A stretch of 64,000 nt of DNA from Eledone cirrhosa (Eukaryota). The notes under the pieces are model-generated. The model ran no database searches and was not told the DNA's origin. It saw only the letters and a list, made by a program, of their open reading frames with translations. The position numbers and the translations under genes were made by a program. Positions 33,920-34,545 of the stretch are shown piece by piece. Every line of letters begins with the position of its first letter. The stretch's first letter is position 1. The stretch lies in assembly GCA_964016885.1 (NCBI GenBank), contig OZ024746.1, positions 74,338,001 through 74,402,000 of the forward strand. The letters run 5' to 3'.

Positions 33920-34545
33920 TACGTACATACATATATGTATACAGACGTACAGTAGTATGTATATATATATACATACATGCACACATATATATATGTACGT
34001 ATGAATTCACCGAACATTTATTATAATGCTCGGTGTGTTTGTAAACAAATATCCCGAATTAAGCCGTACAGTGTCTAGCAACCATCGTTGCTCATTTGTT
34101 CAACACTGACAAAGGAACGCTGTACTAGTTTCAAGCTTATTGGCTATCGTCAGTATATACTTTCAGACGTTCAATCATCTGGCAGGAAGGTATTCGTTGC
34201 TGACGATAGCTAATAAGCTTGAAACTAGTGCAGCGTTCCTTTGTCAGTGTTGACAAAGGAACGCTGTACTAGTTTCAAGCTTATTGGCTATCGTCAGTAT
34301 ATACTTTCAGACGTTCAATCATCTGGCAGGAAGGTATTCGTTGCTGACGATAGCTAATAAGCTTGAAACTAGTACAGCGTTCCTTTGTCAGAGCAACGAT
34401 GGCTTAATTAGGGATGTTTGTTTACAAACACACCGAGCATTATAATAAATGTTCGGTGAATCTTACGTATATATATATGTGTGCATGTATGTATGTATAT
34501 ATATACATACTACTGTACGTCTGTATACATATATGTATGTACGTA
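33920..34545. mobile_element. Foldback enclosing a 144-bp tandem duplication with four hammerhead cores
   Basis: Outer arms 33920-34065 / 34400-34545; tandem units 34107-34250 and 34251-34390. Confidence 0.85.
34340..34378 (+). ncRNA. Canonical-core type I hammerhead motif (tandem copy at 34196-34234 has GTG at the cleavage triplet)
   Basis: gttg-CTGACGA-t-agct-aata-agct-t-GAAA-ctag-TA-cagc. Confidence 0.8.

What the first reader, a model, noticed from the sequence alone, without database searches (positions are those of the whole stretch)
34107..34390. 144-bp tandem, self-complementary unit with hammerhead cores in both polarities (retrozyme/viroid-like)
Seen: two near-identical units. Each has a minus-strand core (CTGACGA..GAAACTAGTA, no cis helix I) and a plus-strand complete HHR, forming a ~47-bp stem. 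The whole sits in a larger foldback. The first plus copy has GTG at the cleavage triplet and the second has GTA. Established: metazoan non-LTR retrozymes are tandem repeats of short HHR-containing monomers that yield circular RNAs, and tandem minimal HHRs can dimerise through palindromic helix III (here CTAG). Inference: a transcript with two GUA sites would release a 144-nt rod-like monomer, and the tandem may be a rolling-circle cDNA. Replication template switching inside a hairpin is the simpler alternative.
Basis: partly seen in the sequence, partly recalled or inferred. Interest (0 to 1): 0.75.

Follow-up and report, generated by a model that had tools for sequence, protein, structure and literature searches.

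The report
Back-to-back retrozyme insertion, locally duplicated
The 144-base double hairpin is a one-off rearrangement of a very common ~430-base repeat that carries a single hammerhead-ribozyme motif: two copies lie back to back, likely joined when a Penelope-type enzyme inserted them, and the join was later duplicated, leaving a hairpin predicted to block the ribozyme rather than a viroid-like circle.

Summary
The locus is built from pieces of a ~430-bp repeat with one type I hammerhead (HHR): about 31,000 cores genome-wide and 2,885 same-strand core pairs at period 407-437, against 9 at period 118-178, two of them this locus. That fits a non-LTR retrozyme. Here two 5'-truncated copies lie head to head in (TA)n. 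Tight head-to-head pairs number 152, tail-to-tail 3. In 34 of 36 other scorable pairs exactly one end carries a ~57-bp extension, the Penelope 'tail'. The 'minus-strand core' is the same HHR inverted, without its helix I strand. The 144-bp repeat is a direct duplication across the inversion junction; both junctions occur only here. The HHR fold lies 56-59 kcal/mol above the hairpin, against 1.4 in parent copies. Neither strand offers two usable cut sites. No RNA run was available. The scan noted similar back-to-back Penelope insertions before on other DNA. Ordinary locus, probably a newly noted family.

The parts
33849..34153 (-). Left arm: 5'-truncated retrozyme copy on the minus strand, parent positions +1 to about +305 (core C = +1), ending in (TA)n
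   Evidence: blastn against a natural array copy, 95.5% over 290 bases; end class 'tail'
33849..33907 (-). About 57-bp extension present on this end only (Penelope-type 'tail'; boundaries approximate)
   Evidence: Right arm stops at +248; 34 of 36 other scorable pairs are also one-sided
34107..34250 (+). 144-bp unit 1: inverted core arm, 46-nt loop, sense core arm, 4-nt spacer
34123..34153 (-). Minus-strand HHR core of unit 1, GTA triplet, no 5' strand of helix I, rare variant at 34142
   Evidence: variant absent from 93 of 93 copies with an intact 5' side
34152..34154 (.). Head-to-head inversion junction (parent +1 joined to -47, 2-nt microhomology); repeated identically at 34296-34298
   Evidence: the pattern occurs exactly only at these two places
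34152..34260 (+). Plus copy 1, parent -47 to about +62, with HHR core 34200-34230 and GTG triplet at 34228-34230
   Evidence: 96.4%; triplet
34251..34253 (.). Duplication junction, 3-nt microhomology (plus copy 1 jumps back to the start of the inverted arm)
   Evidence: sequence; one exact match genome-wide
34251..34391 (+). 144-bp unit 2
34267..34297 (-). Minus-strand HHR core of unit 2, GTA triplet, no helix I, shares the rare variant (34286)
34323..34391 (+). Complete type I HHR by sequence: helix I with internal loop, 4-bp helix II over a U-U pair, palindromic helix III, GTA triplet 34372-34374
   Evidence: fold in isolation; pair tallies; weak HH9 match
34296..34557 (+). Right arm: plus copy 2, parent -47 to +248, with 13-bp and 18-bp deletions, ending in (TA)n without the extension

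Best explanation
This is a head-to-head pair of truncated copies of a ~430-bp hammerhead-bearing repeat (non-LTR retrozyme type), likely joined during insertion by a Penelope-like element (PLE) enzyme, whose central 144 bp were then duplicated, likely by a local DNA copying slip, leaving a hairpin predicted to keep the ribozyme from folding. Shown: family, unit length, locus map, unique junctions, head-to-head bias, one-sided extension, (TA)n flanks. Inferred mechanism: (1) tandem arrays are transcribed and would self-cleave as dimers through the palindromic helix III; (2) a PLE protein would nick both strands of a (TA)n site and start cDNA at two fixed places in the RNA (+248 and about +305); (3) the two truncated cDNAs would join back to back by microhomology; (4) later a 144-bp direct duplication across that junction would arise at a 3-nt microhomology, possibly together with the adjacent 13-bp deletion. 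On either strand the antisense arm precedes each core, so any transcript would be long double-stranded RNA, not a ribozyme.
For: 30,976 cores at up to 1 mismatch, control 0. 2,885 same-strand pairs at period 407-437; 7-copy array with spacing 427-431. 152 tight head-to-head against 3 tail-to-tail pairs at the same gap range. One-sided extension in 34 of 36 other pairs with both ends scorable, of 55 examined (binomial p 2e-8). The ends run into (TA)n: 35 of 49 non-continuing ends at +248 and 26 of 32 at +305. Arms of one locus differ by a median 5.2% (32 pairs) against 11.8% across loci. The duplication postdates the inversion: both units share the same junction and a rare minus-arm variant; the units differ at 1 of 141 sites, the outer arms at 5 of 162 plus indels. 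HHR fold penalty +56 to +59 kcal/mol here against +1.4 in parent copies; helix I probability about 1e-37 against 0.49-0.77. PLEs are known to give inverted 5'-truncated copies, a one-ended tail and (TA)n targets (PMC8557442, passages), two-strand cleavage and two RT start sites (PMC11167929, passages and part of main text), and close HHR pairs on opposite strands (PMC4209133, passages).
Against: No autonomous PLE with homology to the family was found among 50 GIY-YIG loci of 10,596 candidates, so the mobilising enzyme is inferred from insertion anatomy. The extension (about 57 bp) is longer than the 30-40 bp reported. In PMC11167929 the RT start site did not differ between strands, so the strict one-long, one-short pairing is not explained by that work. 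The time and mechanism of the duplication rest on few differences. Two other loci (L045, L055) have four alternating segments with unlike junctions, so multi-switch synthesis at insertion also occurs. No target-site duplication can be read inside (TA)n. The sample of pairs was chosen by a tight-hairpin pattern on three contigs.
Confidence: 0.85

Rival explanations
1. The whole four-segment structure, including the 144-bp repeat, arose in one insertion event, when the reverse transcriptase or a repair polymerase re-copied its own fresh hairpin. Same family and same dead product; only the timing differs.
For: L045 and L055 also have -+-+ layouts; L055 switches strand at +47, and L049 and L054 break at +55 and +59, near this locus's jump at +47/+62. 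The 13-bp deletion abuts the duplication.
Against: The units are more alike (1 of 141) than the outer arms (5 of 162 plus indels), and both minus arms carry a variant that the plus arms lack. Only 1 of 56 mapped pairs is -+-+.
Confidence: 0.07
2. The second unit is an assembly or consensus artefact at a long hairpin; the true allele has one unit.
For: Long perfect hairpins next to microsatellites are hard to sequence (own knowledge; PMC8557442 notes assembly trouble at such inserts).
Against: The units differ at one site and the junction has a clean microhomology. Comparable complex layouts occur elsewhere in the assembly.
Confidence: 0.05
3. The 144-nt unit is or was a viroid-like circular RNA with ribozymes in both polarities, and the tandem is its rolling-circle cDNA.
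For: Greater-than-unit length, rod fold also as a circle (-87.3 kcal/mol), cores on both strands, both minus triplets intact. A fold-back origin has been proposed for a viroid's two-ribozyme domain (PMC8865084, passages).
Against: Junctions unique in 3.0 Gb; no second copy of the unit among 9 short-period pairs. Flanks continue as parent sequence on both sides. Minus cores lack helix I and one plus core has GTG, so neither strand has two usable sites. Forcing both plus HHRs costs 115 kcal/mol, against about -4.8 gained from the helix III duplex.
Confidence: 0.03

Closest known systems
Metazoan non-LTR retrozymes (coral, mussel, axolotl; PMC7229834, passages and section 14; bioRxiv 10.64898/2026.07.22.740005, main text)
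   Same: Parent family: short AT-rich tandem unit, one type I HHR per unit, monomers to multimers, very high copy number. The U-U pair at the base of helix II is also described for axolotl HHR_Amex2.
   Different: Unit ~430 bp, above the 170-400 nt of PMC7229834 but within the 51-972 bp of the preprint. Circular RNA and cleavage untested. This locus is an inverted, truncated derivative; 'inverted' does not occur in the main text of PMC7229834.
Insertions of endonuclease-positive Penelope-like elements: inverted 5'-truncated copy, one-ended tail, (TA)n targets (PMC8557442; PMC11167929; PMC4209133)
   Same: Head-to-head inversion with varied junctions, extension on one end only, (TA)n flanks, close HHR pairs on opposite strands.
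   Different: No reading frame of a PLE was found in the unit; extension about 57 bp rather than 30-40; partner element not identified.
[quoted passage not shown]
   Same: Cores facing each other in a rod; a fold-back origin has been proposed for them.
   Different: Here the two cores are the same ribozyme in near-perfect inverted copy, one lacks helix I, the unit is single-copy chromosomal DNA within parent flanks, and nothing shows a circle or replication.

Membership tests
Non-LTR retrozyme (parent family) | Head-to-tail tandem units of a few hundred bases | tested here: met
   2,885 pairs at period 407-437; 7-copy array
Non-LTR retrozyme (parent family) | One type I HHR per unit with conserved core and NUH triplet | tested here: met
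   Core CTGA[CT]GA in 90 of 93 copies; triplet GTA in 117 of 128; helix I position -3/+34 varies T-G 61, G-T 16, A-T 8 of 93; HHR fold within 1.4 kcal/mol of the minimum. Rfam support is weak only.
Non-LTR retrozyme (parent family) | No protein coding, non-autonomous | tested here: inconclusive
   Frames of 90 aa or more across copies are low-complexity and lack the RT and GIY-YIG motifs screened; they were not scanned against Pfam
Non-LTR retrozyme (parent family) | Self-cleavage and circular RNA in vivo | not testable with these tools
   No RNA holder listed
Non-LTR retrozyme (the 144-bp unit as its own family) | Unit is itself repeated or dispersed | tested here: not met
   Junction patterns exact only here; none of the other 7 short-period pairs has this unit
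Non-LTR retrozyme (the 144-bp unit as its own family) | Two consecutive units with complete, foldable HHRs | tested here: not met
   First plus triplet GTG; minus cores without helix I; fold penalty 56-59 kcal/mol
PLE-type insertion | Inverted 5'-truncated copy at the 5' end | tested here: met
   152 head-to-head against 3 tail-to-tail; locus map
PLE-type insertion | Tail on one end only, from two fixed 3' ends | tested here: met
   34 of 36 other scorable pairs, plus this locus; length about 57 bp, longer than reported
PLE-type insertion | AT-rich or (TA)n target | tested here: met
PLE-type insertion | Homology to the pseudo-LTR of an autonomous PLE in the genome | tested here: inconclusive
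   None among 50 GIY-YIG loci of 10,596 candidates; L095 and L155 merely hold ordinary family copies nearby
Viroid-like RNA with ribozymes in both polarities | A complete ribozyme on each strand | tested here: not met
   Minus cores have no helix I partner
Viroid-like RNA with ribozymes in both polarities | Circular RNA of both polarities, RNA-to-RNA replication | not testable with these tools
   No RNA holder listed

The most novel reading that the evidence does not exclude
Penelope-type back-to-back insertion of a retrozyme routinely puts hammerhead cores on both strands of a rod (152 tight cases in this genome), and a chance duplication across such a join gives a greater-than-unit template: this locus would then be a caught-in-the-act precursor of a two-polarity, viroid-like circle born from an animal genome, yielding a 144-nt circular RNA.
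Probability: 0.03. Interest if true: 0.8.

Novelty: new member of a known kind. Interest (0 to 1): 0.22.

Why it matters
The 144-bp unit itself matters little: it is a probably dead rearrangement and shows how a scan for 'ribozymes in both polarities' can be misled by inverted insertions. The parent family is of modest use. The link between animal retrozymes and Penelope elements has been argued from shared ribozymes, co-occurrence and trees (PMC7229834; bioRxiv 10.64898/2026.07.22.740005). Here a 31,000-copy family with no PLE reading frame shows the Penelope insertion anatomy directly, with two fixed ends and a near-strict one-long, one-short pairing, which gives defined start sites to test with a PLE protein in vitro. 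The many head-to-head pairs would also be a source of long double-stranded RNA if transcribed.

Tried and rejected
Sequencing runs: no RNA holder listed; this says nothing on expression. Laying runs X1, X2, X4, X21 and X1, X2, X3, X9 showed the family at great depth, but no listed contig bridged either junction at 100% identity; these are filtered contigs, probably of another individual, so this neither confirms nor refutes the allele. An exact 51-base piece with the GTG triplet stands in X1-X3 at depth 515-615, so GTG is not private to this locus, although it was 1 of 128 in my copies. Rfam at gathering score: nothing. Search for an autonomous partner: 30 plus 20 GIY-YIG loci, no homologous pseudo-LTR; PLE fragments next to family copies (L029, L065, L048) were rejected as evidence because both insert in (TA)n. 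The seven 1-mismatch hits to the duplication junction are ordinary copies with a 1-base deletion, and the third hit to the inversion junction (L041) joins parent -47 to the core on one strand. A DNA-transposon (MITE) reading of the foldback was rejected: junctions vary, ends are asymmetric and most copies are not inverted. Literature: no paper describing this family in 5 searches; supplements (e.g. of the bioRxiv preprint, closed) and repeat libraries were not seen and may list it. Earlier-findings search by sequence found nothing. Three genome searches failed on a busy machine and were repeated (29, 31, 32).

Full report
Observation. The two units are real. They start at 34107 and 34251, period 144, 99%, with one mismatch in 141 bases, G at 34230 against A at 34374. 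Each folds as a rod of -92.7 kcal/mol with a 47-49 bp stem. Plus cores start at 34200 (GTG) and 34344 (GTA); minus cores at 34153 and 34297 (both GTA) have no helix I partner. The window is AT-rich and full of microsatellites, from a 3.0-Gb assembly.

The parent family. A DNA search with 34200-34470 gave 1,886 candidates, 40 scored. The core pattern with up to one mismatch occurs 30,976 times, control 0. A 7-copy array has spacings 427-431. Exact same-strand core words occur 2,885 times at period 407-437 and 9 times at period 118-178, two of which are the two strands of this locus. Of the other seven, six are internally deleted or partly repeated copies and one (L055) is a separate inversion. 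In 93 copies with an intact 5' side the core is CTGACGA (75) or CTGATGA (15), helices I and II pair, and helix I position -3/+34 is T-G in 61, G-T in 16 and A-T in 8; the triplet is GTA in 117 of 128 copies. Helix III is a 6-nt palindrome that cannot close in cis, as described for metazoan type I HHRs that work as dimers (PMC4209133, passages). Rfam supports this only weakly (HH9, E 0.048, below cut-off). These features match non-LTR retrozymes (PMC7229834, passages and section 14; bioRxiv 10.64898/2026.07.22.740005, main text). Cleavage and circular RNA are untested.

Anatomy of the locus. With the core C as +1, mapping on a natural copy gives four segments: minus (about +305 to +1), plus (-47 to +62), minus (+47 to +1), plus (-47 to +248, two deletions), between (TA)n tracts. 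The minus core lacks helix I because the inversion junction falls at +1. The two polarities are therefore one ribozyme and its truncated mirror image.

Inversions are routine in this family. Exact head-to-head core words 41-101 bases apart occur at 152 places (two are the units here), tail-to-tail at 3. I mapped 49 of these 152, six wider pairs and this locus. Junctions vary; no more than two loci share one junction pair, and the +1/-47 junction is found only here. Copies end at two fixed places, +248 and about +305, mostly in (TA)n (35 of 49 and 26 of 32 non-continuing ends). Of the 55 other pairs, 36 had both outer ends scorable, and 34 had one long and one short end (p 2e-8); 19 were truncated, unmapped or at a locus edge. 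This locus follows the rule. Arms of one locus are more alike (median 5.2%, 32 pairs including this one) than arms of different loci (11.8%, 1,778 non-independent comparisons). Inverted 5'-truncated copies, a 30-40 bp tail at one end and (TA)n targets are described for PLEs (PMC8557442, passages); a PLE protein cleaves and extends both strands and starts at two sites that bound the tail (PMC11167929, passages and second part of main text); close HHR pairs on opposite strands were reported in PMC4209133. I infer PLE-driven insertion with two cDNAs joined back to back. Against this: no homologous autonomous PLE turned up in 50 GIY-YIG loci of 10,596 candidates, the extension is longer than reported, and PMC11167929 saw no strand difference in start site.

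The duplication. Its junction pattern has one exact match in the genome; the seven 1-mismatch hits are ordinary copies. The loop keeps its orientation in both units, so it is a direct duplication, at a 3-nt microhomology. Both units share the inversion junction and a minus-arm variant seen in none of 93 other copies, so unit 2 copies unit 1 after the inversion formed. The units differ at 1 of 141 sites, the outer arms at 5 of 162 plus indels, which suggests, on few sites, a later event. L045 and L055 show that four-segment layouts can also arise with unlike junctions, which keeps a one-event origin open. A rolling-circle copy of a 144-nt circle would not be expected to carry collinear parent sequence on both sides (inference).

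Can it cut? Forcing the HHR fold costs 1.4 kcal/mol in isolation and in two parent copies, 2.5 in a 430-nt parent context, but 59 in unit 2 and 56 in the whole locus. Helix I probability is about 1e-37 here and 0.49-0.77 in three parent copies; forcing both plus HHRs costs 115 kcal/mol. The antisense arm is made before each core on either strand, and truncated transcripts already fold as the rod. The plus strand has one NUH site, the minus strand no helix I. These are predictions, not assays.

Reads. No RNA holder was listed. Contigs and RAD reads hold the family abundantly, but none listed bridges either junction; this is uninformative on the allele, so an assembly artefact stays possible at low odds.

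Novelty. The layout is known for PLEs and the family type is known. Five paper searches found no description of this family; supplements and repeat libraries were not seen. Earlier notes of this scan describe the same back-to-back, one-sided-tail pattern in other genomes and another retrozyme family in this genome; I read them, and they are unchecked. The boldest reading left is that such loci are precursors of two-polarity circles, in the spirit of the fold-back origin proposed for a viroid domain (PMC8865084, passages); I give 3% that this locus yields such an RNA. Verdict: new member of a known kind, interest 0.22.

Noticed in passing
L044:2115-2975 (+): A second, related hammerhead repeat (period about 467 bp, 66-73% identical in parts) beside the 7-copy array, with different but pairing helices I and II and the same palindromic helix III; a fragment of it is folded back in L154:5438-5657.
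   Followed up: partly
window 17532-18693 (-): Broken Penelope-like element: GIY-YIG domain at 17532-17945 (Pfam PF01541, E 2.9e-5), followed by an HHR-like motif near 17325; similar fragment in L065.
   Followed up: partly
window 15322, 19793, 21740 (+); 15807, 30407 (-): Further minimal hammerhead-like motifs unrelated to this family, two of them (15322, 19793) in near-identical repeats ending in (TA)n; probably ends of other Penelope families.
   Followed up: no
window 63550-63930: Two tandem copies of a 189-bp unit, 91%, that look like a tRNA-derived SINE (recalled, not tested).
   Followed up: no
L045:670-1172 and L055:836-1880: Other four-segment (-+-+) insertions of the same family with unlike junctions; strand switches or breaks near +47 to +62 recur in L049, L054, L055 and this locus, at the 3' base of the HHR stem.
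   Followed up: partly
L006:1165-1245 (+): Another hammerhead-like motif with a very long helix II insert, unrelated to this family (seen).
   Followed up: no
parent unit, about 90 bases upstream of the core (e.g. L044): An ATGCAAAT octamer (recalled as an Oct-factor site of snRNA-type promoters) is kept in both related families; a possible internal promoter element.
   Followed up: no
L144, L145, L146 (G000:C1:83811500-83818500, C1:145869500-145876500, C5:100716000-100723000): PLE reading frames of 844-1,096 aa with RT motifs and GIY-YIG, candidates for intact elements; no homology to this family.
   Followed up: partly
L044:7517-9550 (-): LTR-retrotransposon pol fragment (RNase H and integrase domains) near the array.
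   Followed up: no
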